A stretch of 64,000 nucleotides of DNA from Patescibacteria group bacterium (GTDB lineage: Bacteria; Patescibacteriota; Minisyncoccia; UBA6257; GWB1-50-10). The notes below the pieces were generated by a model that saw only the letters and a program-made list of their open reading frames with translations, was not told the origin of the DNA and did no database searches. Below, in pieces: positions 24,053 through 61,394 of the stretch. Each line of letters begins with the position of its first letter. Position 1 is the stretch's first letter. Both the position numbers and the translations under genes were made by a program. The stretch is from assembly GCA_023474215.1 (NCBI GenBank), contig JAMCYI010000001.1:2836-66835 (forward strand), in the 5' to 3' direction.

Positions 24053-24079
24053 AATTCCAAAATCCAAATTCCAAATCAA
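24053..24079. repeat. AAWTCCA heptamer tandem repeat (about 3.5 units) directly after gyrB stop, followed by hairpin ccaaatcaa/ttgatttgg
   Basis: direct reading. Confidence 0.7.
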
Positions 24080-24216
24080 TGAGGGTTGATTTGGTATTTG
24101 ACATTTGAGCTTCGACATTATAGTATTGAATTGTTCCGTAGATAGCAGGGGCCGCAAGGCTTAATCATCCTGCCGAGGAAGAAACTTCTGGGAAGTCGGT
24201 CGATTCTTCTTGAAAA

Positions 24217-24238
24217 CTGCGGAAACGCAGATTTTTTG
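24217..24238 (+). promoter_or_regulatory. rplJ leader hairpin ctgcg-gaaa-cgcag + TTTTTTG (attenuator/L10-leader-like)
   Basis: GNRA hairpin + T-run 5 nt upstream of rplJ ATG. Confidence 0.5.
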
Positions 24239-24242
24239 TTAT

Positions 24243-24740
24243 ATGAAAACAAAAGCGCAAAAAAAGGAACAAATCGAAACGGGAAAAGGGGAACTCGATA
24301 AAAGCGAAACCGTCGTCTTCACCGATTTCACCGGCCTCTCGGCGAATGATTTGAACGTGTTTCGAAAACTCGTCCGGGGACTCGGGGGCGTCATGGTCGT
24401 CATGAAAAAGCGGCTCTTGACCCTCGCGCTGAAAGAGAAAGGCATCGACTTCGATGCAAAAAAACTCGAAGGCCAAGTCGGCGTCGTGTTTTCGCCGAAA
24501 GATTCGGTCGAGACCGCAAACGTCGTCTATCAATTCGGCAAACCGTTCAGAGCAAAAAATATCTTCAATATTTTGGGCGGCTTCGAGGTCAAAGGGAAGC
24601 GGTTCATGGAAAAAGCGGAAGTCGAAACGCTCGGTCAGCTTCCGTCACGCGAAGTCCTCCTGGGACAGCTTGCGTTCATGCTCACCGTTCCGATCAAGAA
24701 AGTTCTTTTCGTTTTGAACGAAAAGGCAAAACAACAATAA
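24243..24740 (+). CDS. rplJ: 50S ribosomal protein L10
   Basis: [32 protein letters not shown]. Confidence 0.9.
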
Positions 24741-24762
24741 AGGTCAATTCATTCAAACTATC

Positions 24763-25128
24763 ATGGAAAAATTCAACGACATCATAGAAAAGATCGAGAA
24801 GCTCTCGGTCATCGAACTTTCCGAGCTCGTCAAAGCGCTCGAAGAGAAGTTCGGCGTCTCGGCTGCGGCAATGGCCGTCGCGGGACCGGCGAACGGGGGA
24901 GCAGCCGCGGAGGAAAAGACCTCCTGGGGTGTGATGCTCAAAGCCGCCGGCGATCAGAAGATCAACGTCATCAAGGTCATCCGCGAAGCGACTGGCTTGG
25001 GCCTCAAAGAGGCTAAGGACGTCGCAGACGGAGCCCCGAAGCTCGTCAAAGAGGGGTTGAAGAAAGAAGAAGCCGAAGAACTCAAGAAGAAGCTCGAGGA
25101 AGTCGGCGCAACCGCGGAGCTGCAATAA
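24763..25128 (+). CDS. rplL: 50S ribosomal protein L7/L12
   Basis: [25 protein letters not shown]...[16 protein letters not shown]. Confidence 0.95.
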
Positions 25129-25149
25129 AAGCAGTTCAGTATATATCTA

Positions 25150-25190
25150 CCCTCCCAAGTTTCACGTTGAAATTTGGGAGGGTTTGATTT
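25150..25190 (+). terminator. rplJL operon terminator (ccctcccaa...ttgggaggg + TTTGATTT)
   Basis: long perfect stem followed by T-rich run. Confidence 0.7.
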
Positions 25191-25324
25191 AACTTTAAGG
25201 GTATCGGGCGTTTAGCGAGGTGGGTTGAAAGCAAATGGTTTTGCTTTCAACGGGCGAATTCTTTTGCTCAAATATACAACACTTCGCCCAGGAAGATCGT
25301 TGCGCACGCCCCGCGCCAAAAATT

Positions 25325-25396
25325 GCACCCTTAGTTTAGTGGTAGAACGTCGCATTCACATTGCGAAGATCGCAGGTTCGATCCCTGCAGGGTGCA
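25325..25396 (+). tRNA. tRNA-Val (anticodon CAC)
   Basis: cloverleaf: acceptor gcaccct/agggtgc, anticodon loop ttCACat, T-arm gcagg-ttcgatc-cctgc. Confidence 0.8.
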
Positions 25397-25419
25397 CAGC
25401 AATTTTGGTGCGGGGCAGG

Positions 25420-25458
25420 TTGCAAAGATCGCTGGTTCGATCCCAGCAACGCCCACCA
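25420..25458 (+). pseudogene. tRNA 3' fragment (anticodon-stem 3' half + variable + T-arm + acceptor 3' + CCA), homologous to 3' part of tRNA-Val, abutting ATG of next gene
   Basis: ttgcaaagatcgctggttcgatcccagcaacgcccacca aligns to ttgcgaagatcgcaggttcgatccctgcagggtgca; no matching 5' half. Confidence 0.45.
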
Positions 25459-26082
25459 ATGGATAACCTTTGCACCATCTACCTCGTAAGGCACGGAGAA
25501 TCGGAAGGAAACATCGGCAAGGTCGTTGGAGGAAATCCTGCCCTCACGGAAAACGGCAAAAAACAGGCGGCCAAAACGGCACAAAAACTGAAAGACGTTC
25601 GCTTTGACGCCGTTTTTTCTTCGAACCTCCTGCGAGCAAAGCAAACGGCAGAGATCATAGCCCTCGAAAAGAAACTCGCCGTCGAAACGCGGGATATCAT
25701 CCGAGAGCGGAGTTACGGTTCACTCGACGGGACGGACGCCGATAAGTTCGGGGAACTCATCAGGGAAGCTCGAGCAAACCTCGGCAAGCTCGCCGGCGCG
25801 GTGAAGTTCCACAATACCTACCCCGAAGGCGTTGAAAACAACATCGATCTTGCAAGCCGCATGATAACTTTTCTTCGGGAGATCGCATCGGCATATGCGG
25901 GGAAAACGGTCCTTGTCGTGAGCCATGGCGGGATCATGCGCGCATTCCTCATTCACCTCGGCTTCGGCACCTATCAAAATTTCAAATCGATGGACATTGG
26001 AAACACTGCCTTCGTGAAGATCGCGACCGACGGCGTTGAATTCAAAATACTCGAAACGGACGGCATCAAAATCCCCGCATAA
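25459..26082 (+). CDS. histidine phosphatase (phosphoglycerate mutase-like) family protein
   Basis: IYLVRHGESEGN RHG motif; SHGG near C-terminus. Confidence 0.75.
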   Translation: MDNLCTIYLVRHGESEGNIGKVVGGNPALTENGKKQAAKTAQKLKDVRFDAVFSSNLLRAKQTAEIIALEKKLAVETRDIIRERSYGSLDGTDADKFGELIREARANLGKLAGAVKFHNTYPEGVENNIDLASRMITFLREIASAYAGKTVLVVSHGGIMRAFLIHLGFGTYQNFKSMDIGNTAFVKIATDGVEFKILETDGIKIPA

Positions 26083-26155
26083 AAATTTGACAGGGCATCG
26101 ATCTAGTTATATAACAACAAGCGAGTTTCCGAGAACATTTACAAAGGAGGCATCG

Positions 26156-26533
26156 ATGATCGACGTCATTAACAAATACGAAGCCGGGGTGAAAAACCGG
26201 GAAATGTTCGAACTCTTTCTGAAAGAGTTCGAAGCGAAGCAGATTGGCATCTTGAACAGCGAAGAATTGTCCGATCCGCTCGCGACTCCGAAATTCGGAG
26301 AAGCGAAGGACGGGCAATTCCTTGCCATCGAGAAAGACGGAAAGATATTTATCTTTCCGAATCCCGCCGTGAAGGTCGACCGCGTGACCGTTGCCGAGCA
26401 AGAGACGATCTTTTTCGTCGACGTTCGGGAGATACGGCACGGACAATCATTTCATGTCGTGAAACCCGGCATCCTAAAAAGGGTCGACGGCTCGTTCGAA
26501 AGAACAGAGCGCGGGAGACTCTGTGTATACTGA
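26156..26533 (+). CDS. hypothetical protein (~125 aa)
   Basis: ORF with RBS-like aaggagg upstream. Confidence 0.4.
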   Translation: MIDVINKYEAGVKNREMFELFLKEFEAKQIGILNSEELSDPLATPKFGEAKDGQFLAIEKDGKIFIFPNPAVKVDRVTVAEQETIFFVDVREIRHGQSFHVVKPGILKRVDGSFERTERGRLCVY

Positions 26534-26548
26534 CTTCGCATAACGTTA

Positions 26549-26590
26549 TCCCGGATCCTGCACTCGCTGCGGAATCCGGGATACTTTTTT
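26549..26590 (+). terminator. terminator tcccggat...atccggga + TACTTTTTT
   Basis: 8-bp stem, T-run. Confidence 0.6.
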
Positions 26591-26670
26591 CTACAATTTG
26601 AAAGTGGGGAATCCCCACAAGTCAACTGTTGATAACTCATCACGAGAAAGTAAGATAAAACCTAATGAAT

Positions 26671-32036: not shown

Positions 32037-32062
32037 ACAAAAAGCCCAATATGTTTGGGCTT
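32037..32062 (+). terminator. terminator aagcccaa-tatg-tttgggctt + TTTATTTT
   Basis: hairpin + T-run. Confidence 0.65.
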
Positions 32063-32122
32063 TTTATTTTAGGCAATTGCTGCTCTTGGCGCGCAGGTGG
32101 TAAACCGCTAAAATAAGAAGGT

Positions 32123-32453: not shown

Positions 32454-33506
32454 ATGGTAACCATCCTCCTCATCATCCTCATCGTTCTTACCGTCGGCCT
32501 TTTGACGGCGACCATCCTTCTTGCACGCAAATTCGAGAAACCAAAAGAAAACGGAGAAGGCCTCACGTTCCTTCAAAATCAAATGAACGAGATCACGCGG
32601 ACGCTCGACTCGAAACTTACCGAATCGAACCGCGTTCTTCAAACCCAGTTCGGCGAAAGCGCAAAGATCATCCGCGACGTGACGGAACGCTTGACCAAGC
32701 TCGACGAAACGAACAAGCAGGTCGTGAATTTCGCCGACCAGCTCCAATCCCTGCAAGACATCCTGAAAAACCCGAAGCAGCGGGGAGTTCTCGGCGAATA
32801 CTATCTCGAAACGCTCCTCAAAAATGTCTTGCCGCCGGAAATCTATCAAATGCAGTACCCGTTCAAGAACGGCGAGATCGTGGACGCCGTCGTTTTCGTC
32901 GGCAAGAAACCCGACGAAAAGATCGTCCCGATCGACTCCAAATTTTCCCTCGAAAACTACAACCGGCTTACGGAAGCCAAGGACCCCGCCGAAAAAGAGC
33001 GGCTCGAAAAACTCTTCGTAAGCGACCTGAAGCAGCGGATCATCGAGACCTCGAAATATATCCGGCCGGAAGAAGGAACGACCGACTTTGCTTTCATGTT
33101 CATTCCCCACGAAGCCATTTACTACGATCTTTTGATCAACAAAGTAGGCGCCGTAACGGAAGATACGGAAAACTTGATCCAACGGGCGGCCGGTAAATAC
33201 AAGGTCGTCATCGTTTCGCCGACGTCATTTTTAGCATACCTCCAAACGGTCCTTCAAGGACTCCGCGCCATGAGGATCGAAGAATCGGCGAAGGAGATAC
33301 GAAAGCGAGTTGAAGAGCTGGGGAAGCATCTCGGAAACTATGAAACCTTCATGAAGAAACTGGGCAGCAACCTCGGCACAACGGTCAATATGTACAACAA
33401 TGCATACAAAGAGTTCGGAAAGATCGACAAGGACGTGCTCCGCATCACGGGCGAATCGATCAATGCGGAACCCGACCAATTAGAGCCTCCGGAAAACGGC
33501 GAATAA
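32454..33506 (+). CDS. rmuC: DNA recombination protein RmuC
   Basis: N-terminal TM + coiled coil, C-terminal DFAFMFIPHEAIYYDLL nuclease-like region typical of RmuC. Confidence 0.7.
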   Translation: MVTILLIILIVLTVGLLTATILLARKFEKPKENGEGLTFLQNQMNEITRTLDSKLTESNRVLQTQFGESAKIIRDVTERLTKLDETNKQVVNFADQLQSLQDILKNPKQRGVLGEYYLETLLKNVLPPEIYQMQYPFKNGEIVDAVVFVGKKPDEKIVPIDSKFSLENYNRLTEAKDPAEKERLEKLFVSDLKQRIIETSKYIRPEEGTTDFAFMFIPHEAIYYDLLINKVGAVTEDTENLIQRAAGKYKVVIVSPTSFLAYLQTVLQGLRAMRIEESAKEIRKRVEELGKHLGNYETFMKKLGSNLGTTVNMYNNAYKEFGKIDKDVLRITGESINAEPDQLEPPENGE

Positions 33507-34768: not shown

Positions 34769-34873
34769 TATGGGAGCGATGTCGCCTCCGAAGAAGCTTT
34801 TTCCTTGAGATATATAAATCCCGAGCGACGAGGAAGGAATGAACGAAATAGCGCCTGTATGAATCCCGAGTTG

Positions 34874-34905
34874 CCTCACTTTTTCACCATGGTGAAAAAG
34901 TGAGG
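34874..34905. repeat. 32-bp perfect palindrome cctcactttttcaccatggtgaaaaagtgagg
   Basis: self-reverse-complementary across CCATGG centre; no T-run on either side. Confidence 0.9.
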
Positions 34906-35007
34906 CATGAGGTTGAGTTCGATATTTCGTGGCTTAATTCCGACGAGGAGCGAGGAGGATTTATTCGAAAGGAAAACTTGCCGATGAGGAGACAACATCG
35001 CGACCCC

Positions 35008-39912: not shown

Positions 39913-40879
39913 AATGAAAAGGGCGCTCATCATAACAGGTGCCGCTATTCTCGTTTTGGGAGCGGCGTGTTATTTTCTCTTCGGTGCGCCGGGGGGAGCT
40001 CCGACGCCCGAACGCTTTATCGTATCCCTCGGCGAAACTCGCGCACAGGCGATACAAAATTTGGCGGATCAAGGATTTATTCGAAGCGGCTTCGGTTTTT
40101 CGATCGCCTCTACCCTCGAAGGGAACCAAGCCATCATCCCCGGCGGATACAAAATCAACGGGAGCATGAACGTTTTTCAGGTGGTTTCGGCCTTAAACCG
40201 ACCACCCTATATGAAATGGGTCGTGGTGCCGGAAGGATTGCGAAAAGAAGAAACAGCGAACCTTCTTCAAAAAGACCTTGGATGGACCGATGCGACGAAG
40301 AACCAATTCTTGAACGCCTATCAGACCCTCGGAGGCAACGATTACAAAGAAGGCGTCTATTTCCCGGACACGTATCTTTTACCCGTCGACGAAACGGGCA
40401 CCCAGATAGCCCAGAGATTCATAACGCAATTCAACGAGAGCTTTGCTCCGTATGCCAAGGAAGCTACGGCTCAAAACATCAAATGGACGACCGCTCTCAA
40501 AATCGCTTCGATCATCCAACGGGAAGCCGCTGGCACAAGCGACATGGCGCTCATTTCCGGGATCATTTGGAACCGACTCCTGAAGAATATGCCTCTCGAC
40601 ATCGATGCGACCATTCAATACGCCCGGGGCGACACGGGCAATGGTTTCTGGGCACCGCTTGCGGTAGCCGACCTGAAAATCGACTCACTATACAACACTT
40701 ACCTCCACAAGGGTTTGCCGCCGACGCCGATATCGAATCCGGGCCTCGCAGCGATCGACGCCGCCTTGAACCCGCAAACGACGACCTGCCTCTACTATAT
40801 CCATGATGCAAATCATATCATCCACTGCGCGGATACATATGCCGAGCAAGAATTAAATGTAAAGAAATATCTCCAATGA
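39912..40879 (+). CDS. mltG: endolytic murein transglycosylase MltG (YceG-like)
   Basis: N-terminal TM; GLPPTPISNPG motif. Confidence 0.8.
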
Positions 40880-41643
40880 AAAATACACTGACGCCATCAA
40901 AAAACGCAGAACGAATGGCAATTCAGTATCTTCAACACGAATTCAGGAAAATCTTGAACGGCATTCGGGACCCGAAGACTTGGAGATTAATAGACAGAGA
41001 AATCGCCAATTTCCCCAAAACACAGGGTGGGGCATCATTCTGGAATCTCGTTGCGGCTATATCGGAAGATTGGAAACTGAAATCGGTCTTCCGAATATTG
41101 TCGGACACGCGGGTCACTTGGACACTGCAAGAAATTTCCCTGAAGAGAATTGTCCTCACCGGGATGTCGCCGGAAATCGACCGCTACACAATAGCGCGAT
41201 GCGACGGGAGTCCGAAGCAGTTTCTTAAACTGTGGGAAGGTAATCGGAAAGCGCGGAGCGACATATTGAAAACAGGATTCTCAAAACACGGGGAGCGAGA
41301 TTACTATCCCATCTTCCTTTGGGAGGGACCGGATGGCCTCCACGTTTTTGATGGCATGCGGAGGATGCTCCTTGCGATCATCAATCGCAAAAAGACGATC
41401 AGGGCATGGGTCGGGAAACCTTCGAGGAAGAAGGGAGGACCACTCATTGCAAACGGTTTTGCTTATGCTCTGTCAGCGGTTTACCGGCATGCCGGCAAGA
41501 GAAATAATGCCCTTGATAATGCCATCATCGAAATCGTAAAAACGATAAAAAGAGATTATCGGAACGGCAAAGAGGTGACAGAAAAAAGAATCGCTGGCTG
41601 GTCGCGCGATGAAAAGATAAAAAAGATATTCGGTCAAAAATGA
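40876..41643 (+). CDS. hypothetical protein (255 aa)
   Basis: ORF, 4-bp overlap with mltG. Confidence 0.45.
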   Translation: MKNTLTPSKNAERMAIQYLQHEFRKILNGIRDPKTWRLIDREIANFPKTQGGASFWNLVAAISEDWKLKSVFRILSDTRVTWTLQEISLKRIVLTGMSPEIDRYTIARCDGSPKQFLKLWEGNRKARSDILKTGFSKHGERDYYPIFLWEGPDGLHVFDGMRRMLLAIINRKKTIRAWVGKPSRKKGGPLIANGFAYALSAVYRHAGKRNNALDNAIIEIVKTIKRDYRNGKEVTEKRIAGWSRDEKIKKIFGQK

Positions 41644-41764
41644 AAAATCGTGCTAAAATAGGCGGAAGGCCGGGCAATCCGGCATACCGAACGCCCGCAC
41701 GGTTGCGGGCAAATGTAAAGTTCAAAATACAAAAGTCAAAACTGAAATTAAAAACTAAAAAACA

Positions 41765-42439
41765 ATGAATGGAAAGTTATACGTCGTGGGAACACCCATC
41801 GGCAATCTGAAAGACATCACGGAAAGGGCAAAGGAGACGCTCACAAGCGTCGATTTGGTACTTGCGGAAGACACGCGGGTCACATCAAAACTCCTAAACC
41901 ATCTCGGCATTAAGAAGCCGATGTGGCGGTACGATGAATACGCAAAAAGCGATCTCTATGAACGGATCCTCGAGTTCCTCGGCGCAGGAAAGGAAATCGC
42001 GCTCGTAACGGACGCAGGAACGCCCTTGATTGCCGACCCCGGATCGAAACTCATTGCCTTCATACGAGAAAGGACGCCCGAAGTGAAGATCGTCCCGATC
42101 CCGGGACCATCGGCCATCGTAACCGCGCTTTCCGCGTCCGGCATGAACGCCGACCGATTCACATTCGCCGGATACCCGCCGCATAAGAAGGGGAGGCAAA
42201 CATTTTTCAAAACCTTGAAACAGATCGAAATGCGACCGGTCGTCATATATGAATCGCCGCACCGGCTTCAAAAAACGTTCAACGACATGGAAAAGATCTG
42301 CGGCATTGAACATCCGATAACCGTGGCAAAAGAATTGACGAAAATACACGAAGAGATTTGGAAGGGGACGCTCGAAGAAGCAAAAAGACATTTTCAAAAA
42401 GAAAAGGGGAAAGGTGAATTCGTCATCATCATACCGTAA
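41765..42439 (+). CDS. rsmI: 16S rRNA 2'-O-methyltransferase RsmI
   Basis: KLYVVGTPIGNLKDITERA...LAEDTR. Confidence 0.85.
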   Translation: MNGKLYVVGTPIGNLKDITERAKETLTSVDLVLAEDTRVTSKLLNHLGIKKPMWRYDEYAKSDLYERILEFLGAGKEIALVTDAGTPLIADPGSKLIAFIRERTPEVKIVPIPGPSAIVTALSASGMNADRFTFAGYPPHKKGRQTFFKTLKQIEMRPVVIYESPHRLQKTFNDMEKICGIEHPITVAKELTKIHEEIWKGTLEEAKRHFQKEKGKGEFVIIIP

Positions 42440-43038: not shown

Positions 43039-43042
43039 GCGA

Positions 43043-43180
43043 GTGAGGGTATTTCTCTTCAAAACACGCTATCAAATTCCCCAGCGTGGAATTTGCGCTC
43101 GCTCTCGGCCTCGCTCTGCCCTTCGGGCAACCATGCCCGCGAGGCCTCCGAGACGGTTTCGAAAGAGAAATATCCTCACC
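43043..43180. repeat. palindrome-flanked element family A (TIR GTGAGGGTATTTCTCTT / AAGAGAAATATCCTCAC), 5 nt after stop
   Basis: 16/17 TIR; internal aaacacgct...cgctcgctctcgg...gagacggttt shared with 49488..49629. Confidence 0.6.
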
Positions 43181-43262
43181 CTTTGGTAAAGTTTTTATAT
43201 TCAAAAGAGGCACAGCTAAAAAGAATGGAAAATCATATAAAACCAGGGTAGAATGAGACCTA

Positions 43263-45481: not shown

Positions 45482-47579
45482 AAGGAACGTCCCCAAAAAG
45501 AATATCGATCCCATTTTAGTTGACGTCAAGAAACCGAACTTCAACTACGACCATCTCCGAAAATTCGAGATCGTCAATCTCACGAAGATCCCCAAGCAGG
45601 AAAAGAGGAACGCGGTTTCGATCGCAAAAAGGGTCCTCCTTGCCGTTTTCATTGCGGGGATCGTGGGATTCGTTTCGTTCATCGGCATCACCTTCGCGAA
45701 TATCCGGCAAATGAAGGCGACCGTCGAGGAAAGTGGGGCGCAAATCATGCAGAATTTCAGTTCATCGGTCGGAGCCCTCAAAAACTTCGAGCCGTCGACC
45801 GCCGCAACGTATCTCGAGAACAACTCGAAATCGCTCGCTAACATCGACAACCTCGTGACAAAGGGGTTCGGCGAAAACATCGTGCAAACGGTGAGCAATT
45901 TCGTCCCCATCATCAAACAAGCGTTCGGTCTTGTAGGACAAGTGTCCAATTTGAACGGGGATCTTTTGGAACTTACCCAAACGATCGCCGATCTCCAAAA
46001 GAACGGATTTAAAGACTTCAAAAGCAACGGCCCCGCACTTATTGCAGACCTCGAAAAACTCCACACCCTCGTCCAAAATCTCAACAGCGAGGCGGGGGGC
46101 ATCAAGAATACCACTTCGTATCTCAAGAGCATGTCGAGCTTTTTCGGAGGATTGGACCAAAATGTCGGAAACGAATATTTGAAGTACAGTTCCGAGCTCT
46201 ACGGCTGGGATAACGTGCTGGTTCAACTGACCAACTTCCTGAACTCCCCGACACCGAAGCATATTGCCGTTCTCTTCCAAAATCCGGCAGAAATACGGCC
46301 CGGCGGGGGATTCATCGGAAGCTACGCGGATGTGAGCGTCCAAAACGGCCAAATGCAGGGCATGGACGTGCGAGACATTTACGATCCGGACGGCCAGCTT
46401 GCCATTAAGGTGATACCGCCCGAAGAATTGCAGGCGACGACTCCCAATTGGGGCGCCCGCGATTCCAACTGGTTCTTCGACTTTCCAACGTCGGCAAAAA
46501 CGACACTGAACTTCTTGAACGCTTCAAAAATGTACTCCGACAAGGGGATCCGCTTCGATGCGGCGATCGCCATCAACATCAACGTCGTAAACTCCCTCCT
46601 TGATGTTACGGGACCTATCACATCGCCCGGATATCCAACCGTCGATTCGTCGAATTTTCTCGAAGAAGTTCAGCGCGAGACGGAGCAGAGCGCGAACCAG
46701 CGAGCCGGGCAGCCGAAAAAAATCCTGCAAGTTCTGGCGCCGATCCTCATGGAAAAGTTGGATGCGCTCGACAGCGATCAATCGAAAGCGCTCATCGATG
46801 CCCTCAAAAATGACCTTCAAAAGAAGGATATCATGTTTTACTCCACCGATCCCACAATCGAGAATTTCCTCGACTCGAACGACGTGAATGGCGGCGTTTA
46901 CCAGCTCCCCGACGGCTTTTGGGGAAACTATCTCGCAGTCGTGAACGCCAACGTTGCCGGCGGCAAGAGCGATGCGTTCGTAAAGGAGGCGGTGAACGCT
47001 CATGTCGACATTGACACGAGCGGGAACACCTTTACGGATGTAACCGTCACGAGACAGCATACCGGCAACACTCAAACGGATCCATGGTGGCGCGCCACGA
47101 ACAATGATTTTCTACAGATCTTCACGGAACCGAACTCGAGCCTCGTCGACGTGACCGGCGAAAACACGCGAAAGAAATACTCAACGCTCGACTATGCCAA
47201 TTCCGACTACGCCGTGAATCCGGATCTCGCTGCCATTCAAGCGAACGAGGTGTTCCTTACCAATTTCAACACGTGGCAGCGATCCGAATTCGGCAAGAAC
47301 GTTTTCGGAACCTGGCTTTTCACAAAGGCGGGGACGACCTCCACGCTCACCATGCGTTACCAAACGAGCTATAACGGCATCAAGGTTTTGATGCCCGGCC
47401 AAAAATACACGTTCGTCTTCGAGCGGCAGTCGGGTGTCCAAAACTCACTCGATTTGACCATCAACGCTCCCTTCAAATATTATTGGGTAGAATCCAATTC
47501 GCCGGTCTATACGTATCACACAGACGACCCGGATAAGCGGATCATCATAACCCTCACGCTTGGGTATCAAAGTCAATAA
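45474..47579 (+). CDS. large membrane-anchored extracellular protein (701 aa), possibly DUF4012-like, in glycan cluster
   Basis: N-terminal TM; IRPGGGFIGSYADVSV motif; gene context. Confidence 0.45.
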   Translation: MAKRNVPKKNIDPILVDVKKPNFNYDHLRKFEIVNLTKIPKQEKRNAVSIAKRVLLAVFIAGIVGFVSFIGITFANIRQMKATVEESGAQIMQNFSSSVGALKNFEPSTAATYLENNSKSLANIDNLVTKGFGENIVQTVSNFVPIIKQAFGLVGQVSNLNGDLLELTQTIADLQKNGFKDFKSNGPALIADLEKLHTLVQNLNSEAGGIKNTTSYLKSMSSFFGGLDQNVGNEYLKYSSELYGWDNVLVQLTNFLNSPTPKHIAVLFQNPAEIRPGGGFIGSYADVSVQNGQMQGMDVRDIYDPDGQLAIKVIPPEELQATTPNWGARDSNWFFDFPTSAKTTLNFLNASKMYSDKGIRFDAAIAININVVNSLLDVTGPITSPGYPTVDSSNFLEEVQRETEQSANQRAGQPKKILQVLAPILMEKLDALDSDQSKALIDALKNDLQKKDIMFYSTDPTIENFLDSNDVNGGVYQLPDGFWGNYLAVVNANVAGGKSDAFVKEAVNAHVDIDTSGNTFTDVTVTRQHTGNTQTDPWWRATNNDFLQIFTEPNSSLVDVTGENTRKKYSTLDYANSDYAVNPDLAAIQANEVFLTNFNTWQRSEFGKNVFGTWLFTKAGTTSTLTMRYQTSYNGIKVLMPGQKYTFVFERQSGVQNSLDLTINAPFKYYWVESNSPVYTYHTDDPDKRIIITLTLGYQSQ

Positions 47580-49486
47580 TGGAAACCATTCGAAATTTTT
47601 GCATTATCGCTCATATCGATCACGGTAAGAGCACGCTTGCCGACCGCCTTCTCGAGATCACGGGGACGGTCGAATCGCGGCGCATGCATGCCCAGTATTT
47701 GGATCAACTCGATCTCGAGCAAGAGCGGGGGATCACCATCAAAATGGCCCCCGTCCGGATGGCATATCATCCGGAATTAGGAATTTCGAATTTCGAATTT
47801 CGAAACAAAGAAAACAATCCTGCTGCCGCTCAAAATTCAAAATTAAAAATTAAAAATTCAGGTTCAGAATATATTCTGAACCTCATAGATACTCCCGGCC
47901 ACTCCGATTTCGCGTACGAAGTATCGCGATCGTTGAACGCCGTCGAGGGCGGCATTCTTCTTGTCGACGCGACACAGGGGATCCAAGCCCAGACACTTTC
48001 CAATTTCAGAGCGGCAAAAGCGGCCGGCCTCACGCTCATCGGGGCGATCAATAAGATCGATCTTTTCAAGGATCGGAACGACCACGCACTTGCCGAACTC
48101 CGAAAGGAAGTGGCGGAACTCCTGGGGATAGGGCCGGAGGACGTTTTCATGGTTTCAGGGAAGACCGGCGAAGGTGTCGAGCAACTTTTGTCGGCTATTA
48201 TCGAAAAGGTTCCGCCGCCAAAAGTCGCAAATTCAAATTTCAAATTTCAAATTTCAAATTTGGGCCGCGCTCTTATCTTCGATTCGTTCTACGACGATCA
48301 TAAAGGCATCGTCGCTTCCGTTCGCGTTTTCGAGGGAGCTTTCGAACGCGAAGACCCGATCGTTCTTGCAGCAACGGGCACCGAAGTAAAGATCAAAGAG
48401 GTCGGTTACTTCTCGCCTCAGCCGAAAGCAGCTCAATCGATCAAGAAAGGCGAGATCGGCTACATTGCGACCGGCATCAAAGACACGAGCAAAGTAAAGA
48501 TCGGCGACACCGTTCTCATGATCCCCAAACCTTACACCATCGACCCTCAAACCCTCGCTCTTCCCGGTTACCGGGAGCCGAACCCCGTGGTTTTCGTTTC
48601 TTTTTATCCCGAAGATGCCGACGACTATGAAAATCTGAAGAGGGGACTTGAAAAACTCCATTTGAACGACTCATCGCTCCATATCGAGCCGGACCAGAAT
48701 GAGATTCTGGGGAGGGGATTCAAAGTCGGATTCCTCGGCAAGCTTCACTTTGAAATAACCGCGGAGCGCCTCGAGCGCGAGTTCGATGCGCGGGTCGTAA
48801 GCACGTTCCCATCCGTCGTCTACAAGATCGTCAATAAAGGAAAGGAAGAATTCATTACAAAACCGGAAGATCTGCCGAACGAATACGACGAGATTTGGGA
48901 ACCGCTCGTCCGCATCAATATCCTCGTTCCTTCGAATTACCTTGCAAGCGTCCTCTCGCTCCAGAATAAATTCCGGATCGAGGATCTGACGACGAAGACG
49001 GTCGTGAACTCCATCGATATCGAAGCGATCATGCCTCTTTCCGAACTCGTGAGCGATTTCGACGACCAACTGAAATCGGCAACGTCCGGCTATGCTTCGT
49101 TCAGCTACGAATTTTTGGACTATCGCAAGGCCGACGTCGTGAAAGTGGATAATTTCGTCGCGGGCGAGATCATTCCGGGCCTTTCGCGGTTCTTCCCTCG
49201 GGAAAGCGTGGAGCGTGAAGCGCGGAAGATGGTGGAAAAACTAAAAATTACCCTTCCGAAACAGCAGTTCCCGCAGGCGCTCCAAGCGAAGATCTCGGGG
49301 AAGGTCATCGCACGCGAGGATATTCCGGCCATGCGGAAGGAACTCGGCAATTTCGGCAAAAACGGCGGAGACCGGACGCGAAAAATGAAACTCTGGCAAA
49401 AGCAGAAAAGGGGGAAGGAAAAACTGAAAGCAATGGGAAAGGTGCGGATCGCGCCGGAGGTATTCAAGGAATTAATTAAGAAATAA
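47579..49486 (+). CDS. lepA: elongation factor 4 (LepA) with two in-frame repeat-derived insertions
   Basis: NFCIIAHIDHGKSTL, DTPGH; C-terminal LepA domain; insertions at about 47772-47884 and 48227-48262. Confidence 0.95.
   Translation: METIRNFCIIAHIDHGKSTLADRLLEITGTVESRRMHAQYLDQLDLEQERGITIKMAPVRMAYHPELGISNFEFRNKENNPAAAQNSKLKIKNSGSEYILNLIDTPGHSDFAYEVSRSLNAVEGGILLVDATQGIQAQTLSNFRAAKAAGLTLIGAINKIDLFKDRNDHALAELRKEVAELLGIGPEDVFMVSGKTGEGVEQLLSAIIEKVPPPKVANSNFKFQISNLGRALIFDSFYDDHKGIVASVRVFEGAFEREDPIVLAATGTEVKIKEVGYFSPQPKAAQSIKKGEIGYIATGIKDTSKVKIGDTVLMIPKPYTIDPQTLALPGYREPNPVVFVSFYPEDADDYENLKRGLEKLHLNDSSLHIEPDQNEILGRGFKVGFLGKLHFEITAERLEREFDARVVSTFPSVVYKIVNKGKEEFITKPEDLPNEYDEIWEPLVRINILVPSNYLASVLSLQNKFRIEDLTTKTVVNSIDIEAIMPLSELVSDFDDQLKSATSGYASFSYEFLDYRKADVVKVDNFVAGEIIPGLSRFFPRESVEREARKMVEKLKITLPKQQFPQALQAKISGKVIAREDIPAMRKELGNFGKNGGDRTRKMKLWQKQKRGKEKLKAMGKVRIAPEVFKELIKK
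47780..47884. repeat. (GAATTTC)3 - spacer - (AAAATTM)4 - 24-bp perfect palindrome ggttcagaatatattctgaacc, in-frame inside lepA
   Basis: direct reading; adds ~27 aa between G2 and G3 regions relative to E. coli LepA. Confidence 0.85.
48227..48262. repeat. (AAATTTC)n heptamer tandem repeat in-frame inside lepA
   Basis: aaattcaaatttcaaatttcaaatttcaaattt. Confidence 0.85.
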
Positions 49487-49487
49487 C

Positions 49488-49629
49488 GGCAACTCTCGAT
49501 CTCTTCCCAAACACGCTGTGCCAAACCCCGGCGAGGTTTGGCCGCTCGCTCTCGGGTTCGCTCTCTCGCTTCGCTCGAACCGTGCCCGTTCACCCTGCGA
49601 GACGGTTTTGTCAGAAATCGAGAGTTGCC
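49488..49629. repeat. palindrome-flanked element family A/B (13-bp perfect TIR GGCAACTCTCGAT), 1 nt after lepA stop
   Basis: perfect TIR; shared internal blocks with 43043..43180 and compensatory internal hairpins. Confidence 0.65.
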
Positions 49630-49677
49630 TAAATTTTGGGGTGGGTGTTTTTGACTCAAGGAAGGGGTGGTGTAAAA

Positions 49678-56541: not shown

Positions 56542-56638
56542 AATTCGCCATTTGGAACTTGGCTTTGACTCTTGCGAAGTTTAATACTAAACTTCGCTTA
56601 TACTCCTAGGGGGACAAACCGAGGGGAACTTTGCGTGT

Positions 56639-59161
56639 ATGACCGACAAAATCATCATAAAAGGAGCGAGGGAACACAACCTCAAAAACATCAACCTCGA
56701 GATACCGAGGGATAAAATGATCGTCATGACGGGGCTTTCCGGCTCCGGCAAATCATCGTTGGCCTTCGACACCATCTTCGCCGAGGGGCAGCGCCGGTAT
56801 GTCGAGTCGCTCTCAGCCTATGCCCGGCAGTTTTTGGGGCGCCTCGACAAGCCCGACGTCGACGAGATCGAAGGGTTATCGCCCGCGATATCCATCGATC
56901 AAAAGCACCACAGCGCAAACCCGCGCTCGACCGTCGCGACCATCACGGAAATCTACGATTATCTCCGTGTTCTTTTCGCGCGCGTCGGCGTGCCGCACTG
57001 TCCCGTCTGCGGCCGCGAGATCAAAAAGATGACGCAGGAGGAAATTGTCGACATTGCGATCCAAATCTACAAAGAAACAAAAGAAAAAAGGAACATGGTG
57101 ATCTTGGCACCCGTGGTCCGCGGCCGAAAAGGAGAGTACTACCAAATGCTCTACGACTTCTTGAACGCCGGGTTCTCGGAAGTTCGGGTCGACGGCAAGC
57201 TCATGAACCTCCGGGAACGGATCGACCTCTCGCGGTATAAGCAGCATTCGATCGACCTTGTGATCGACCGGATTCCGGGTGGGCTCGATTTTCGGAACAA
57301 GGACAACCGCCTTCGCCTTGCGGAAAGCATCGAAAACGGCTTGAAATACGGCGCGGACGTCGTCACCATCATCACGGACAAAGAAATATCGCTCTCGGCG
57401 AAATATACCTGCCCCAACGACGGCTTTTCATTTCCCGAGATCGAGCCGCGCCTTTTTTCATTCAACAGTCCCTTTGGCGCTTGTGAAACATGCCACGGCT
57501 TGGGTGTTGAAAACCCCTGGTCGGAAAAGATCTGTCCGACCTGCCTCGGCAAGCGCCTTAAGGTGGAAAGTTTGAACGTTTTGATCGACGATAAAAACAT
57601 CGCGGAAGTTACCGCATTTTCCATCGCTCATTCCTTTGATTTTTTCACCAAGCTCGAAACAAAGCTCGAAAAGAACAAGAGCCTCATCGCCATTGCCGAA
57701 GTGCCGATGAAGGAAATCAAGAACCGCCTGAAATTCATGATCGACGTCGGCCTTGAATACCTGCAGCTCGACCGCAAAGCCGGAACGCTTTCGGGCGGGG
57801 AGTCGCAGCGGATCCGTCTGGCATCCCAGATCGGCTCGCGCCTCGTGGGCGCCCTGTACATCTTGGATGAACCGACCATCGGACTCCATCAAAAAGACAA
57901 CGCAAAACTCATTCAAACCCTCAAAAATCTCCGCGATCTCGGAAACACGATCGTTGTCGTGGAACACGACGAGGATACGATCCGCGAATCCGACTACCTG
58001 GTCGACATCGGCCCCGGTGCCGGCATTCACGGCGGGAAGGTCGTCGCGGAGGGACCGATCCCTGCGATCCTGAAAGACAAGACCCAGAAATCCCTGACGC
58101 TCGATTACCTCCGGGGCGAGGAGTTCATCGCCGTCCCCAAAACGAGGCGACCAGTCTCAAGGGCCCACGAACATTTGAAGGTACAAGGGGCGACGGAAAA
58201 CAATCTGCAAAACATCGACGTCGAATTCCCGCTTCGAAGGTTTTCCGTCGTGACCGGCGTTTCGGGGTCCGGCAAATCGACCTTGGTGTACGACGTTCTC
58301 TTTAAAAACCTCTCGAACAAATTCAATAAATCCCATTTCAAAGCGGGACAATGCAAAGGGATCATTGGAACCGAATACGTGAATCGCATTGTGAGCATTG
58401 ATCAGTCGCCGATCGGCCGGACGCCCAGATCGAACCCGGCGACCTACGTGGGCGCCTGGGGACCGATCCGCGATCTTTTCGCCTCAACACCGGACGCGCG
58501 GGTCCGCGGATACAAACCGGGGCGCTTCAGCTTCAACGTCCGGGGAGGGCGGTGCGAGAACTGCGAAGGACACGGCGTGATCGCGATCGAAATGCATTTC
58601 CTACCGACCGTTTACGTCACCTGCGACGTTTGCAAGGGCAAGCGCTTCGACCGGGAAACGCTCGAAGTCGAATACAAGGGAAAAAGCATCTTCGATGTTC
58701 TCGAAATGACCATCGAAGAAGCGACGAAATTCTTTAACGATATCCCGTGGATCGAAGACAAATTGAAGATCTTGAACGAGGTCGGCCTCGGATACCTGAA
58801 ACTCGGCCAATCGGCGACAACGCTTTCGGGCGGCGAAGCTCAGCGCATCAAGCTCGGCGCGGAGCTTGGCAAGCGGGACACGCGGCGCACGCTTTATCTC
58901 TTGGACGAGCCAACGACCGGCCTCCATTTCGCCGACGTCAAAAAGCTCATCGAAGTCCTTCAAAGGCTCGTCGAACGGGGAAATACCGTCGTCGTCATCG
59001 AACACAACTTGGATGTCATAAAAACCGCCGATTGGGTGATCGATCTCGGTCCGGAAGGAGGAGAAAACGGCGGCACACTCGTCGCCACAGGAACACCGGA
59101 AGCGATCTCAAAGAAAGCGGGCAGCTTCACTGGAGAGTACTTGAAGAAAGTTTTAAAATAA
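56639..59161 (+). CDS. uvrA: excinuclease ABC subunit A (840 aa, short)
   Basis: two ABC ATPase modules, zinc-finger CxxC motifs. Confidence 0.9.
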
Positions 59162-59165
59162 GTTC

Positions 59166-60023
59166 ATGAAATCGAAAACCATCGGCTTGGCGCTCGGGGG
59201 CGGGGGAGCGAAGGGTCTCGCTCATATCGGCGTTTTAAAAACCTTCCTCAGGGCGGGATTCAAGATCGATTACCTTGCCGGCACATCCATGGGCTCTCTT
59301 GTCGGGGGGCTTTACGCCGCAACCGAAGACATTGATTTCATAGAACGAACGTTCCTCGACATAGCCGAGAATTATTCCTTCCATCGAAAACATTTGAGAG
59401 GAAAAAAGAACCTGCTCTTTACGGACGAAGAGACGGTCGAAAAAATGCTTTCCCAAAAGATCGACGGACTCGACGTTAAAAATACCCGGATCCCGTTCAA
59501 AGCGATCGCAACCGATGTGAAAGACGGGGACGAAGTGGTCATCGACAAAGGAAGTTTGGTAAAAGCCATTCGGGCAAGCTCGGCCCTCCCCATTGCCTTC
59601 CCGCCCGTCGAGATCGACGGGAGACTCTTAATGGACGGCGGTTTCGTAAATCCCGTTCCCGTCGATATCGTGAAGAAAATGGGGGCCGAATACGTCATCG
59701 GCGTCGACGTCTCGAGCAAATGGCCCGACATCGAAGACGAACACTTTTCTCTTTCCGGGATCAAATCGACCATCGTCGATGCGTTTTCAGCGCTCGAATA
59801 TCAAGTCGCCAAAGAGAAGGTCAAGGACGCCGACTTCATGCTCCATCCGCCGGTTTTAAGCTTTCATTGGGACGACTTCCGGAATGCGAAGGACATCATT
59901 CAAATGGGCGTCAATGAAGCGACAAATAGCATTCGCGAGATCAGGGAACGAACGCATTATCCGAAACCGGTCAAAAAACCCCTCCAAAGCTTCATCGACT
60001 TCATTTCGGGAAACGACCTGTAG
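59166..60023 (+). CDS. patatin-like phospholipase (RssA-like)
   Basis: GGGAKG, GTSMG (GxSxG), DGG motif. Confidence 0.85.
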   Translation: MKSKTIGLALGGGGAKGLAHIGVLKTFLRAGFKIDYLAGTSMGSLVGGLYAATEDIDFIERTFLDIAENYSFHRKHLRGKKNLLFTDEETVEKMLSQKIDGLDVKNTRIPFKAIATDVKDGDEVVIDKGSLVKAIRASSALPIAFPPVEIDGRLLMDGGFVNPVPVDIVKKMGAEYVIGVDVSSKWPDIEDEHFSLSGIKSTIVDAFSALEYQVAKEKVKDADFMLHPPVLSFHWDDFRNAKDIIQMGVNEATNSIREIRERTHYPKPVKKPLQSFIDFISGNDL

Positions 60024-60028
60024 CGCCC

Positions 60029-60166
60029 GCGAGAATTCACTTCTCGGAACCGGGCGTTCTTTCGCTCCGGCGGCGAAAGCCGCCCTGCGTTCTCGGCGGA
60101 AAATCCGCCCCACGGGCGGAACCGAGCTTTTTCGCCTCCGAGAGCTTCCTCGAAGTGAATTCTCGC
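60029..60166. repeat. element D with 15-bp perfect TIR GCGAGAATTCACTTC, 5 nt after patatin stop
   Basis: perfect TIR; internal hairpins (ctttcgc...gcgaaag) and repeated cggaaccg. Confidence 0.7.
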
Positions 60167-60206
60167 AGGCTTGATTTTAATTGGGAAAAAGGAAAAATTA
60201 TAAACA

Positions 60207-61394
60207 ATGAATCTTTATTCGAAACTTCCGGAAACTCCGGGCGTCTACATCATGAAAGATGCGGCGGGGAAAATCCTCTATATCGGCAAGGCCGTCAATG
60301 TGCGGCGGCGGGTTTCGAGTTATTTCACGCGACCGCATGATGCGCGGATCGAAGGGCTCGTCCGGGAGATCAAAACGATCGATTTCAAGAAGACCGATAC
60401 GGGAATTGAAGCACTGATCCTTGAATCCGAGCTTATTAAAAAACATCAACCTCCCTTCAACATCAAGGAAAAGGACGACAAGAGCTTCTTATACGTCGAA
60501 ATGACGGGAGAAAGGTTCCCACGCATATTTTTAGCGAGAGGGAAGGACAAACCGAACGGCAAACGGTACGGTCCTTTTACATCGGCCTCAAGCATTCGCG
60601 AGGCGCTCCGGATCATAAGAAAAATTTTCCCCTACGCGACGCACCCCGAGCCGAAAAAACCGCAGGCGAGGGCCTGTTTCGACTACCAAATCGGTCTCTG
60701 CCCGGGAACGTGCATCGGTGCGATCTCAAGGAAGGACTATTTGAAAAACATCGAGAACATCGAACTCTTCTTCGGAGGCAAAAAGGAACGGATCATAAAA
60801 AACCTCGAGCGCGAGATGAAAACGGCAAGCAAGGCATTGAACTTCGAGCGGGCAGGAGAATTGAAGCGCCAGCTTTTTGCCCTCCAGCACATCCAAGACG
60901 TAGCAGTCATCTCTGATGATAAAATCCAAAATCCAAATGACAAATTCAAAAAAACGACGCGAATCGAAGGGTACGATATCTCAAATATCAGTGGAGCTTC
61001 TGCTGTTGGATCGATGGTCGTTTTCACGAACAACGAACCGGACAAAAAAGAGTATCGAAAATTCAAAATTAAAACGGTTTTTCAGCCGAACGATTTCGGC
61101 ATGCTTCAGGAGGTCCTGGAACGGCGCCTCAAAAATAACTGGCCGTTGCCCGACCTTTTCCTTATCGACGGCGGCAGGGGACAGGTGAGCGCCGTCCGCG
61201 GGATCCTTGGCAAAGCAGGGATCAAAATTCCGGTCATCGGCATCGTGAAGGGCCCGGAACGAAAGCGAAACGACATCATCGGAAAAATCCCGTCATTCAC
61301 CGATCTTCAGATCCTCATAAAAGTACGAGACGAAGCTCATCGCTTCGCCATTACGTACCATAAAAAGGTGAGAAGCCGCGAATTTATGAATTGA
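60207..61394 (+). CDS. uvrC: excinuclease ABC subunit C, short form (GIY-YIG + UVR + endonuclease; no C-terminal HhH)
   Basis: GVYIMKDAAGKILYIGKAVNVRRR GIY-YIG; UVR motif ERAGELKRQLFALQ. Confidence 0.8.
   Translation: MNLYSKLPETPGVYIMKDAAGKILYIGKAVNVRRRVSSYFTRPHDARIEGLVREIKTIDFKKTDTGIEALILESELIKKHQPPFNIKEKDDKSFLYVEMTGERFPRIFLARGKDKPNGKRYGPFTSASSIREALRIIRKIFPYATHPEPKKPQARACFDYQIGLCPGTCIGAISRKDYLKNIENIELFFGGKKERIIKNLEREMKTASKALNFERAGELKRQLFALQHIQDVAVISDDKIQNPNDKFKKTTRIEGYDISNISGASAVGSMVVFTNNEPDKKEYRKFKIKTVFQPNDFGMLQEVLERRLKNNWPLPDLFLIDGGRGQVSAVRGILGKAGIKIPVIGIVKGPERKRNDIIGKIPSFTDLQILIKVRDEAHRFAITYHKKVRSREFMN
60921..60955. repeat. heptamer-periodic A-rich repeat (AAAATCC AAAATCC AAATGAC AAATTCA) in-frame in uvrC
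   Basis: direct reading. Confidence 0.7.

What the first reader, a model, noticed from the sequence alone, without database searches (positions are those of the whole stretch)
24053..60955. Family of AT-rich heptanucleotide tandem repeats (AAATTYC / AAAATCC) scattered at four loci, three of them in coding regions in frame
The loci are 24053-24079 (after gyrB), 47780-47861 and 48227-48262 (lepA) and 60921-60955 (uvrC). The 7-bp period times 3 units keeps the frame. AT-rich microsatellite-like arrays in an otherwise 58% GC genome are unexpected. They may be hypermutable (slipped-strand) tracts or footprints of a small mobile element.
Basis: seen in the sequence. Interest (0 to 1): 0.55.

Follow-up and report, generated by a model that had tools for sequence, protein, structure and literature searches.

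The report
In-frame AT-rich heptamer repeats in CPR genes
Short AT-rich 7-base tandem repeats really do sit after gyrB and in frame inside loops of LepA and UvrC of this Patescibacteria genome; they belong to a widespread repeat class, and mark spots where near-identical strains differ by whole inserted or swapped segments.

Summary
Four or five AT-rich period-7 arrays lie at the stated coordinates: 4 strong arrays against 0.37 expected by chance. The window GC is 51%, not 58%, and the uvrC array is weak.

The repeats are not specific to this genome. (AAAWTYC)4 arrays occur in at least 120 species genomes, including many cyanobacteria, Bacteroidota and about 17 CPR lineages. About half lie in frame inside ordinary proteins, almost always with the A-rich strand as sense.

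In the window they occupy permissive places:
- the gyrB-rplJ spacer
- two LepA surface loops
- the UvrC interdomain linker

These places are hypervariable. Nine of ten LepA alleles that are 91–98% identical lack the 84-nt site-1 insert. A 72%-identical lineage carries it at about 93–96% identity.

The site-1 arrays are arms of a 132-nt three-hairpin cassette. Its ends are inverted copies of the neighbouring host codons.

Best reading: these are slippage and template-switch products, filtered for frame and hydrophilicity and shuffled by recombination. They are not classical phase-variation loci, and they are not a defined MITE. A selfish, nuclease-linked cassette remains possible, because a complete GxxExxY ORF occupies the same site in other lineages.

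The parts
24053..24079 (+). Heptamer array (AATTCCA/AAAATCC type, about 3.4 units) starting 2 nt after the gyrB stop codon. It forms the 5' arm of a hairpin.
   Evidence: TRF; scan; inverted repeat I1
24058..24107 (+). AT-rich hairpin with arms 24058-24079 and 24086-24107 (22 nt, 82% complementary, 6-nt loop). It lies in the spacer between gyrB and the rplJ promoter, and its 3' arm overlaps the -35 box TTGACA at 24098.
   Evidence: centroid -15.9 kcal/mol, z only -1.6, no U tract. Identical in L212, but replaced by unrelated sequence in L214 and L213.
47755..47886 (+). lepA site-1 cassette: the 132-nt tract that differs from near-identical alleles (48 nt there). It encodes ...[36 protein letters not shown]... 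in the beta2-beta3 loop of the G domain.
   Evidence: RNA fold -35.1 kcal/mol, z -4.5. Residues 67-94 have pLDDT<50.
47754..47775 (+). Left junction hairpin. Host codons for V-R-M (TCCGGATG, 47754-47761) pair with the first bases of the insert (CATCCGGA, 47768-47775).
47773..47806 (+). Left heptamer array (GGAATTA GGAATTT CGAATTT CGAATTT CGAAAC).
   Evidence: Inverted partner of the right array (I1: 33 nt, 76%).
47829..47861 (+). Right heptamer array (AAAATTC/AAAATTA x4.4), the degenerate inverted partner of the left array.
   Evidence: Absent from L002 (36-nt deletion).
47860..47883 (+). Right junction palindrome AGGTTCAGAATA|TATTCTGAACCT. The last 12 nt of the insert are the reverse complement of the host codons for Y-I-L-N-L.
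   Evidence: I11 (12 nt, 100%). It covaries with host codons in other lineages.
48228..48263 (+). lepA site-2 array (CAAATTT x5, nearly self-complementary). It encodes NSNFKFQISNL in the coil after the PPP motif.
60921..60955 (+). Weak array (AAAATCC x2.4, then degenerate AAATGAC AAATTCA). It encodes DKIQNPNDKFKK in the variable linker between the UVR motif and the RNase H domain of UvrC.

Best explanation
These are short simple-sequence repeats of one unit family, (A/G)AAWTYC. This AT-rich heptanucleotide repeat class is common in Patescibacteria and in several other phyla.

Shown:
- They sit where extra sequence is tolerated: the spacer between gyrB and the rplJ promoter, two disordered surface loops of LepA/EF4, and the interdomain linker of UvrC.
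- These positions are indel and replacement hotspots between otherwise near-identical genomes.
- In genes, the A-rich strand is almost always the sense strand, which gives stop-free, hydrophilic K/Q/N/S/I/F/P peptides.

Inferred:
- The arrays are generated and remodelled at the DNA level, by replication slippage and intramolecular template switching in hairpin-prone AT-rich sequence.
- Selection then keeps only variants whose total length is a multiple of three, that lack stops, and that do not disturb the fold.
- Short-patch homologous recombination moves such segments between alleles or erases them.

At lepA site 1 the two arrays are the arms of the middle hairpin of a 132-nt three-hairpin cassette. 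Its two ends are inverted copies of the adjacent host codons, a pattern expected from fold-back (snap-back) copying. The window's lineage acquired this cassette recently from a diverged relative.
For: - Periodicity and family: (21 period-7 arrays against 1-5 for neighbouring periods in 213 kb).
- Breadth: (AAAWTYC)4 occurs in at least 120 species genomes across many phyla. It is in frame in GluRS, PGK, TrmD, LeuRS and other proteins of CPR lineages.
- Sense-strand bias: 57 to 4 overall, and 34 to 4 for units that are stop-free on both strands.
- Permissive sites: AF2 gives pLDDT<50 for residues 67-94, between two strands. The UvrC linker is variable in all homologs.
- Hypervariability: 9 of 10 alleles at 91-98% aa identity lack the site-1 insert. 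Another 90% cluster shows 8 states in 8 members.
- Boundaries: the difference from a ~99%-identical genome is confined to 47755-47886.
- Mosaicism: the cassette shows 6.8% mismatch to L006 against 29.7% in the rest of lepA (p=3.6e-10). Against L004 it is 47.9% versus 3.9% (p=1e-18).
- Slippage-like turnover: CAAATTT versus CAAATTC in every unit between 95%-identical alleles, an exact 21-nt difference in L006, and extra units in L128 relative to L129.
- Junction palindromes: perfect stems of 9-13 bp in 9 of 12 insert-bearing lepA genes, against a maximum of 6 in 64 empty sites. They match lineage-specific codons.
- Genome-wide excess of perfect palindromes of at least 10 bp: 10 against 1.3 expected, several of them inside genes.
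- Literature: heptanucleotides are the commonest long-SSR class, and polymerase slippage is the proposed cause (Mrazek 2007, as summarised in PMC4679880).
Against: - No read-level data, so no direct rate of copy-number change is known.
- Site 2 has constant length in the ten-member cluster.
- The (GAATTTC)3 array is identical in three lineages that are 16-28% diverged. That looks like recent transfer or constraint, not rapid slippage.
- Simple slippage does not predict junction palindromes. Pure arrays in other genomes are not flanked by long stems (4.37 versus 4.38 bp), so the fold-back step is inferred from one site family.
- Most of the empty-site controls are non-CPR LepA genes.
- The reason for a 7-nt unit with this particular composition is unexplained.
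Confidence: 0.55

Rival explanations
1. The lepA site-1 cassette, and perhaps the other arrays, is a selfish site-specific element. It would be a hairpin-bounded cassette comparable to Rickettsia palindromic elements or to rRNA intervening sequences, and it may carry a GxxExxY (PD-(D/E)XK) nuclease ORF in its loop. The window's copy would be an ORF-less derivative, or a repair scar left after cleavage of the conserved lepA site.
For: - The same codon position hosts no insert, heptamer hairpins, or a complete TIGR04256 GxxExxY ORF (profile 2-116 of 116) in 5 of 121 homologs.
- The ORF-bearing allele has the same architecture: left stem 9 bp, right stem 11 bp, and inverted tandem arrays around the ORF.
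- There is presence/absence polymorphism inside species-level clusters.
- The cassette is far more conserved than its host gene between lineages.
- It is an in-frame insertion in a surface loop of a conserved protein, as for RPEs (PMC10969869).
Against: - No second copy of the cassette exists in the window or in about 1.5 Mb of held DNA.
- The four window loci share no element-length consensus.
- There are no direct target-site duplications.
- The exchanged tract includes host codons on both sides, as ordinary gene conversion would produce.
- The function of PF13366 is unknown (PMC3424549), and no nuclease gene is linked to the window's cassette.
- Pure arrays elsewhere lack the hairpin architecture.
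Confidence: 0.2
2. The repeats are kept for a function. Either they act as structured RNA or DNA (a gyrB terminator, or mRNA hairpins that pause ribosomes between G-domain elements), or the extra LepA and UvrC loops act as lineage-specific functional protein segments.
For: - The cassette folds far better than shuffles (z -4.5).
- Junction stems stay perfect while host codons differ between lineages.
- The gyrB-proximal hairpin sits where a terminator is expected.
- Heptamer repeats have been proposed as binding sites for single-strand-binding regulators in other bacteria (PMC4679880).
Against: - Nine of ten near-identical alleles do without the insert.
- Peptide sequence is not conserved: most WIN-L006 differences in the insert are non-synonymous (N->D twice, A->T, G->D; reading). 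Site 2 changes from NSNFKFQISNL to NANSKFQIPNF.
- The central arms are only 76% complementary, with no G-U compensation.
- The gyrB hairpin has z -1.6, no U tract, and is replaced by unrelated sequence in relatives.
- No Rfam family matches at any array.
Confidence: 0.12
3. The repeats are classical phase-variable contingency loci. Gain or loss of single 7-nt units would switch lepA and uvrC off and on.
For: The unit length is not a multiple of three and the arrays lie inside ORFs. Heptanucleotide tracts do drive phase variation in some pathogens (papers listed).
Against: - No out-of-frame allele was seen among 121 LepA homologs, 80 metagenome lepA loci, 26 listed cluster members or 121 UvrC homologs. 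Truncated products would be under-sampled, however.
- All observed length differences are multiples of three: 84, 36, 21 and 6 nt.
- The genes are housekeeping genes, not surface or restriction genes.
- The arrays have only 2.4-5 units.
Confidence: 0.05

Closest known systems
Long simple sequence repeats with 5-11-nt units, especially heptanucleotide repeats (Mrazek et al. 2007, as summarised in PMC4679880). This class includes the cyanobacterial STRR heptamers and the TAACTGA repeats of Beggiatoaceae, Cyanobacteria and Bacteroidetes.
   Same: - Head-to-tail 7-nt units in short arrays.
- Patchy phylogenetic distribution centred on Cyanobacteria and Bacteroidetes.
- Stop-codon content of a unit limits where it can lie in genes (my own frame analysis).
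- Slippage is the proposed origin.
   Different: - The unit family here is (A/G)AAWTYC.
- About half of the arrays lie in frame inside conserved proteins, with a strong sense-strand bias. TAACTGA repeats are mostly just upstream of start codons.
- The CPR/Patescibacteria occurrence and the pairing of arrays into hairpin arms were not found in the literature searched.
Rickettsia palindromic elements (RPEs) and other intragenic MITEs
   Same: Palindromic, hairpin-forming DNA of about 100-150 bp, inserted in frame into unrelated housekeeping genes at positions compatible with the protein fold (PMC10969869).
   Different: RPEs are families of dispersed copies with a conserved sequence and a conserved encoded peptide. 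Here no second copy of the cassette was found. The loci share only a 7-nt unit family, and the ends are inverted copies of host sequence rather than element termini.
Tandem repeats in Borg elements that create disordered protein regions (PMC9879509, listed)
   Same: Rapidly evolving, recently formed tandem repeats inside ORFs that add low-complexity, probably disordered segments.
   Different: By my recollection of that paper, Borg in-ORF repeats have unit lengths divisible by three. Here the unit is 7 nt, so all three frames are read in turn and only multiples of three units (or compensated lengths) survive.
Quasi-palindrome (template-switch) mutagenesis and snap-back templated insertions at DNA breaks (established mechanisms; my own knowledge)
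   Same: These mechanisms produce perfect inverted copies of adjacent sequence. That matches the L|rc(L) and rc(R)|R junctions and the genome-wide excess of perfect palindromes.
   Different: This is a mechanism, not a family. It was not demonstrated in Patescibacteria, and it does not by itself explain the heptamer unit.

Membership tests
Heptanucleotide simple sequence repeats (LSSR 5-11 class) | Head-to-tail copies of a 7-nt unit, more frequent than chance | tested here: met
   TRF. There are 4 arrays against 0.37 expected. Period 7 gives 21 arrays against 1-5 for periods 4, 5, 6, 8, 10 and 11 in 213 kb.
Heptanucleotide simple sequence repeats (LSSR 5-11 class) | Length or unit polymorphism between related strains consistent with slippage | tested here: inconclusive
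   In favour: concerted unit change and a 21-nt difference, and extra units in L128 relative to L129. Against: constant length at site 2 within the 90% cluster. No read data.
Phase-variable contingency locus | Out-of-frame alleles produced by single-unit changes among close relatives | tested here: not met
   None were seen. All length differences are multiples of 3. Sampling is biased against truncated products.
Phase-variable contingency locus | Located in surface, host-interaction or restriction-modification genes | tested here: not met
   The hosts are LepA/EF4, UvrC and the gyrB-rplJ spacer.
MITE / Rickettsia palindromic element | Several dispersed copies of one conserved element sequence in a genome | tested here: not met
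   BLAST of the cassette against the window and all loci hits only lepA orthologs. The rest of the 465-kb contig could not be read.
MITE / Rickettsia palindromic element | Terminal inverted repeats with direct target-site duplication | tested here: not met
   The inverted arrays are internal. The junctions are inverted, not direct, copies of host sequence.
MITE / Rickettsia palindromic element | In-frame insertion at fold-compatible positions of housekeeping proteins | tested here: met
   (loop between strands 58-63 and 98-104, pLDDT<50).
Homing-endonuclease or IVS-like insertion | Nuclease ORF inside the insertion at a conserved site, with empty and occupied alleles | tested here: inconclusive
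   A complete GxxExxY ORF occupies the same site in P0010, P0015, P0027, P0063 and P0117. The window's cassette has no ORF.
Homing-endonuclease or IVS-like insertion | Nuclease cleaves the empty site; element copied by repair | not testable with these tools
   Needs biochemistry. The function of PF13366 is listed as unknown.
Intrinsic terminator (gyrB-proximal hairpin) | G+C-rich stem followed by a U tract on the sense strand | tested here: not met
   No + strand hit at 24058-24107. The stem is AT-rich and z is -1.6.

The most novel reading that the evidence does not exclude
Patescibacteria, and perhaps the other phyla rich in these heptamers, harbour a previously undescribed kind of in-frame, translated intervening cassette. 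It would target loops encoded next to highly conserved codons. It is bounded by hairpins whose outer arms are copied from the host gene itself, it has tandem-repeat arms in the middle, and it can carry a GxxExxY PD-(D/E)XK nuclease ORF. The heptamer hairpins in lepA would then be its ORF-less form, or the repair scar of nuclease attack. The cassette would spread between lineages in a homing-like way.
Probability: 0.15. Interest if true: 0.8.

Novelty: new variant of a known kind. Interest (0 to 1): 0.5.

Why it matters
Heptanucleotide repeats are a known but unexplained feature of some bacterial genomes. This case shows that one AT-rich unit family is widespread in the Candidate Phyla Radiation. 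It is routinely translated as extra hydrophilic loops in core enzymes, and it marks positions that change faster than anything around them.

Practical consequences:
- It explains many odd low-complexity peptides (KFQIPNS, KIQNPKS, FEFRNS) in CPR protein annotations.
- It is a caution for alignments and phylogenies built from these marker genes.
- It gives strain-level markers.

The lepA cassette has host-derived palindromic ends, and a nuclease ORF occupies the same site in other lineages. That offers a concrete, testable entry point into how small genomes acquire and exchange protein insertions.

Tried and rejected
- Rfam at gathering thresholds found nothing at any array.
- The terminator scan found no sense-strand terminator at the gyrB hairpin.
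It returned mostly non-CPR genes, useful only as empty-site controls plus four extra inserts.
- I tested whether junction palindromes are a general property of heptamer arrays. They are not: stems next to 112 pure arrays equal random controls.
- I looked for frame-breaking site-1 inserts that would point to bypassing or excision. None were found.
- I looked for dispersed copies of the cassette. None were found.
- Three literature searches found no description of these repeats in CPR.
- CPR specificity was rejected by the genome scan.
- An assembly artefact is rejected, because the same arrays recur in independent NCBI and ENA assemblies.
- I did not attempt a formal covariation count on the junction stems, because the palindrome centre shifts by half a base between lineages.
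Full report
**Source and setting.** The window is part of contig DAIBZB010000001.1 (465 kb) of assembly GCA_027423645.1. Homologs of its LepA, UvrC and GyrB carry the names Patescibacteria, Paceibacterota, Minisyncoccia and Jorgensenbacteria. G+C is 51.3%, not 58%. Pfam confirms gyrB at 22051-24051 and a short UvrC of 395 aa at 60207-61394. lepA lies at 47579-49486.

**The observation.** TRF reports period-7 arrays at 24053-24076, 47781-47804, 47830-47860, 48228-48261 and, weakly, 60921-60937. A lag-7 autocorrelation scan finds the first four and nothing at periods 5, 6 or 8. Third-order Markov simulations give 0.37 such arrays per window, P about 0.003. All units belong to one family, (A/G)AAWTYC, or its complement. 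In 213 kb of related DNA not chosen by pattern, period 7 gives 21 arrays against 1-5 for periods 4, 5, 6, 8, 10 and 11, and nearly all are AT-rich.

**Breadth.** The hits include about 40 cyanobacteria (many Nostocales), Bacteroidota, Acidobacteriota, Verrucomicrobiota, Chloroflexota, Planctomycetota and 17 CPR lineages. So the repeat is not special to this genome or to CPR.
- 61 of 120 arrays lie in stop-free ORFs of at least 200 aa.
- In 57 of those 61, the A-rich strand is the sense strand.
- For the two units that are stop-free on both strands, the ratio is 34 to 4.
- The hosts are ordinary enzymes: GluRS, PGK and TrmD by Pfam, and LeuRS-, SecA- and RecJ-like proteins by sequence.

Because 7 is coprime to 3, any frame reads the same cyclic heptapeptide: KIQNPKS, KFQIPNS, KFKIQNS or KFQISNF. 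The strand bias is what a filter for hydrophilic, loop-compatible peptides would produce.

MacGregor 2015 (PMC4679880) describes TAACTGA heptamer repeats with a similar patchy distribution. That paper summarises Mrazek 2007: heptanucleotides are the most abundant long-SSR class, and polymerase slippage is the proposed cause. I found no paper on such repeats in CPR.

**Where the window's arrays sit.**
- LepA site 1 lies between the conserved GITIKMAPVRM.Y and Y.[9 protein letters not shown]. In the AF2 model, residues 67-94 have pLDDT<50 between strands 58-63 and 98-104.
- LepA site 2 is a coil after the PPP motif.
- The uvrC array lies in the linker between the UVR motif and the RNase H domain. 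This linker is variable in length and sequence in all 120 homologs. It often reads like heptamer repeats (KISGIKNSELKIRNF, IRNSKFEIRNY, NFQFPISNFQTY), and otherwise like a GC-rich RLGRRPGD type.
- The first array starts 2 nt after the gyrB stop codon. It is the 5' arm of an AT-rich hairpin (22-nt arms, 82% complementary) whose 3' arm overlaps the -35 box of a promoter in front of the L10 leader.

**Hypervariability.**
- Among 121 LepA sequences, 86 have no insert at site 1 and 35 have diverse inserts, many of heptamer type.
- Inside the 90%-identity cluster that contains the window's protein, nine of ten members (91-98% identical) lack the insert.
- In another cluster, eight members show eight different states.
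- Against L211, which is about 99-100% identical over 12 kb, the difference is confined to 47755-47886: 132 nt against 48.
- Against L006, the cassette shows 6.8% mismatch while the rest of lepA shows 29.7% (p=3.6e-10). Against L004 it is 47.9% versus 3.9% (p=1e-18).

The cassette therefore has a different history from its gene. The window's lineage most likely gained it by short-patch recombination from a diverged relative.

At site 2, alleles that are 95% identical differ in every unit (CAAATTT versus CAAATTC) at constant length, and L006 is exactly 21 nt shorter. Within the cluster, length is constant but the sequence varies.

The gyrB-proximal array is identical in the closest genome. It is replaced by an unrelated GC-rich hairpin in a relative with 97% GyrB identity, and by another sequence in an 88% relative. 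Other intergenic spacers are likewise swapped between near-identical genomes.

**Architecture of the site-1 cassette.** It folds into three hairpins (MFE -35.1 kcal/mol, z -4.5, 0 of 200 shuffles).
- The middle hairpin pairs the two heptamer arrays (33 nt, 76%).
- The outer two are unexpected. The insert begins with the reverse complement of the upstream host codons: TCCGGATG pairs with CATCCGGA.
- It ends with the reverse complement of the downstream host codons: AGGTTCAGAATA pairs with TATTCTGAACCT.

The same holds in other lineages, with arms that match each lineage's own synonymous codons. Perfect right-junction stems are 9-13 bp in 9 of 12 insert-bearing genes, against a mean of 3.1 and a maximum of 6 in 64 empty sites.

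This is not a general property of heptamer arrays. Stems next to 112 pure arrays equal random controls.

The window as a whole has 10 perfect stems of at least 10 bp, against 1.3 expected. Several of them lie inside genes.

In five LepA homologs the same site holds a complete GxxExxY protein (TIGR04256, profile 2-116 of 116). It has the same junction stems and is flanked by inverted tandem arrays of 10-12-nt units.

**Interpretation.** The best-supported reading has three steps.
1. The arrays are slippage and template-switch products in hairpin-prone AT-rich sequence.
2. In genes they are filtered for frame, absence of stops and hydrophilicity.
3. They are shuffled by recombination.

Steps 1 and 3 are inferred from comparative patterns. 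The filter in step 2 is shown by the strand bias and by the absence of any out-of-frame allele. The junction palindromes fit fold-back copying of adjacent sequence, but this rests on one site family.

The repeats are not classical contingency loci. They sit in housekeeping genes, all length differences are multiples of three, and the arrays are short.

They are not a defined MITE or RPE either. There is no second copy of the cassette, no shared consensus among loci, and no direct target duplication.

A selfish, nuclease-linked cassette at lepA site 1 cannot be excluded. It is the most novel reading left open.

**Verdict.** The finding is real, and its first interpretation is partly right. The kind of sequence (heptanucleotide simple repeats) is known. 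Three aspects appear to be undescribed: the in-frame occupancy of core-protein loops across CPR, the population-level turnover, and the host-templated hairpin cassette. I rate it a new variant of a known kind, with moderate interest.

Noticed in passing
L127 6001-8310 (LepA P0010); also P0015, P0027, P0063, P0117: A complete GxxExxY / PF13366 PD-(D/E)XK protein (TIGR04256, profile 2-116 of 116) is inserted in frame at exactly the LepA site-1 position. It is flanked by inverted tandem arrays of 10-12-nt units (CGCAGAATGA... / ...TTCCGCG) and has the same host-complementary junction stems.
   Followed up: partly
window 5179-5206, 13248-13271, 25224-25251, 26207-26233, 26338-26359, 32039-32065, 32893-32920, 34872-34907, 56574-56597: There is an excess of perfect hairpin stems of at least 10 bp (10 against 1.3 expected). 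It includes an 18-bp perfect palindrome at 34872-34907 and several inside coding sequence, for example FELFLKEFE and DGKIFIFPN.
   Followed up: partly
window 43040-43220, 49484-49630, 40874-41637: Compared with a ~99%-identical genome (L211), two intergenic spacers are replaced by unrelated hairpin-bearing sequence. A 764-nt segment holding ORF 40876-41643 is present only in the window.
   Followed up: partly
L004 2956-2977 and L211 (empty lepA site 1): The 'empty' allele of the window's own cluster also has 7-nt periodicity there: TATACCC TCGGCCC TATACCC TATACCC, encoding YTLGPIPYTL. It appears to be seeded from the host codons TAT ACC CTC.
   Followed up: no
UvrC and LepA homologs (P0150, P0160, P0165, P0171, P0173; P0093, P0097, L134, L177): A second, GC-rich kind of insert peptide recurs at the same variable sites: RLRLGRRPGDS, PPAGRAD, LAGRQA, LPAGEAG. 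This suggests another family of small hairpin-like inserts in these genomes.
   Followed up: no
window 5002-5121 (-): LOOT RNA (RF03000), 88.6 bits, full length.
   Followed up: no
window 24098-24246 (+): A sigma-70-like promoter (TTGACA, 17 nt, TAGTAT) is followed by a ribosomal protein L10 leader (RF00557, 66 bits) in front of rplJ-rplL. The promoter and leader are conserved in relatives, while the spacer upstream is not.
   Followed up: partly
window 60207-61394: UvrC is only 395 aa. It has GIY-YIG, UVR and RNase H domains but no C-terminal helix-hairpin-helix region. All 120 closest homologs are similarly short (380-444 aa).
   Followed up: no
GyrB homologs P0276, P0294-P0297, P0375: Some related Patescibacteria GyrB proteins are 1029-1099 aa long and carry an intein domain (PF14890). 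The window's GyrB (666 aa) has none.
   Followed up: no
window 41710-41781: A degenerate A-rich stretch with weak 7-nt periodicity (0.57) lies just upstream of the ORF starting at 41765. It is conserved in L211 apart from a few single-base differences, so it behaves differently from the other arrays.
   Followed up: partly
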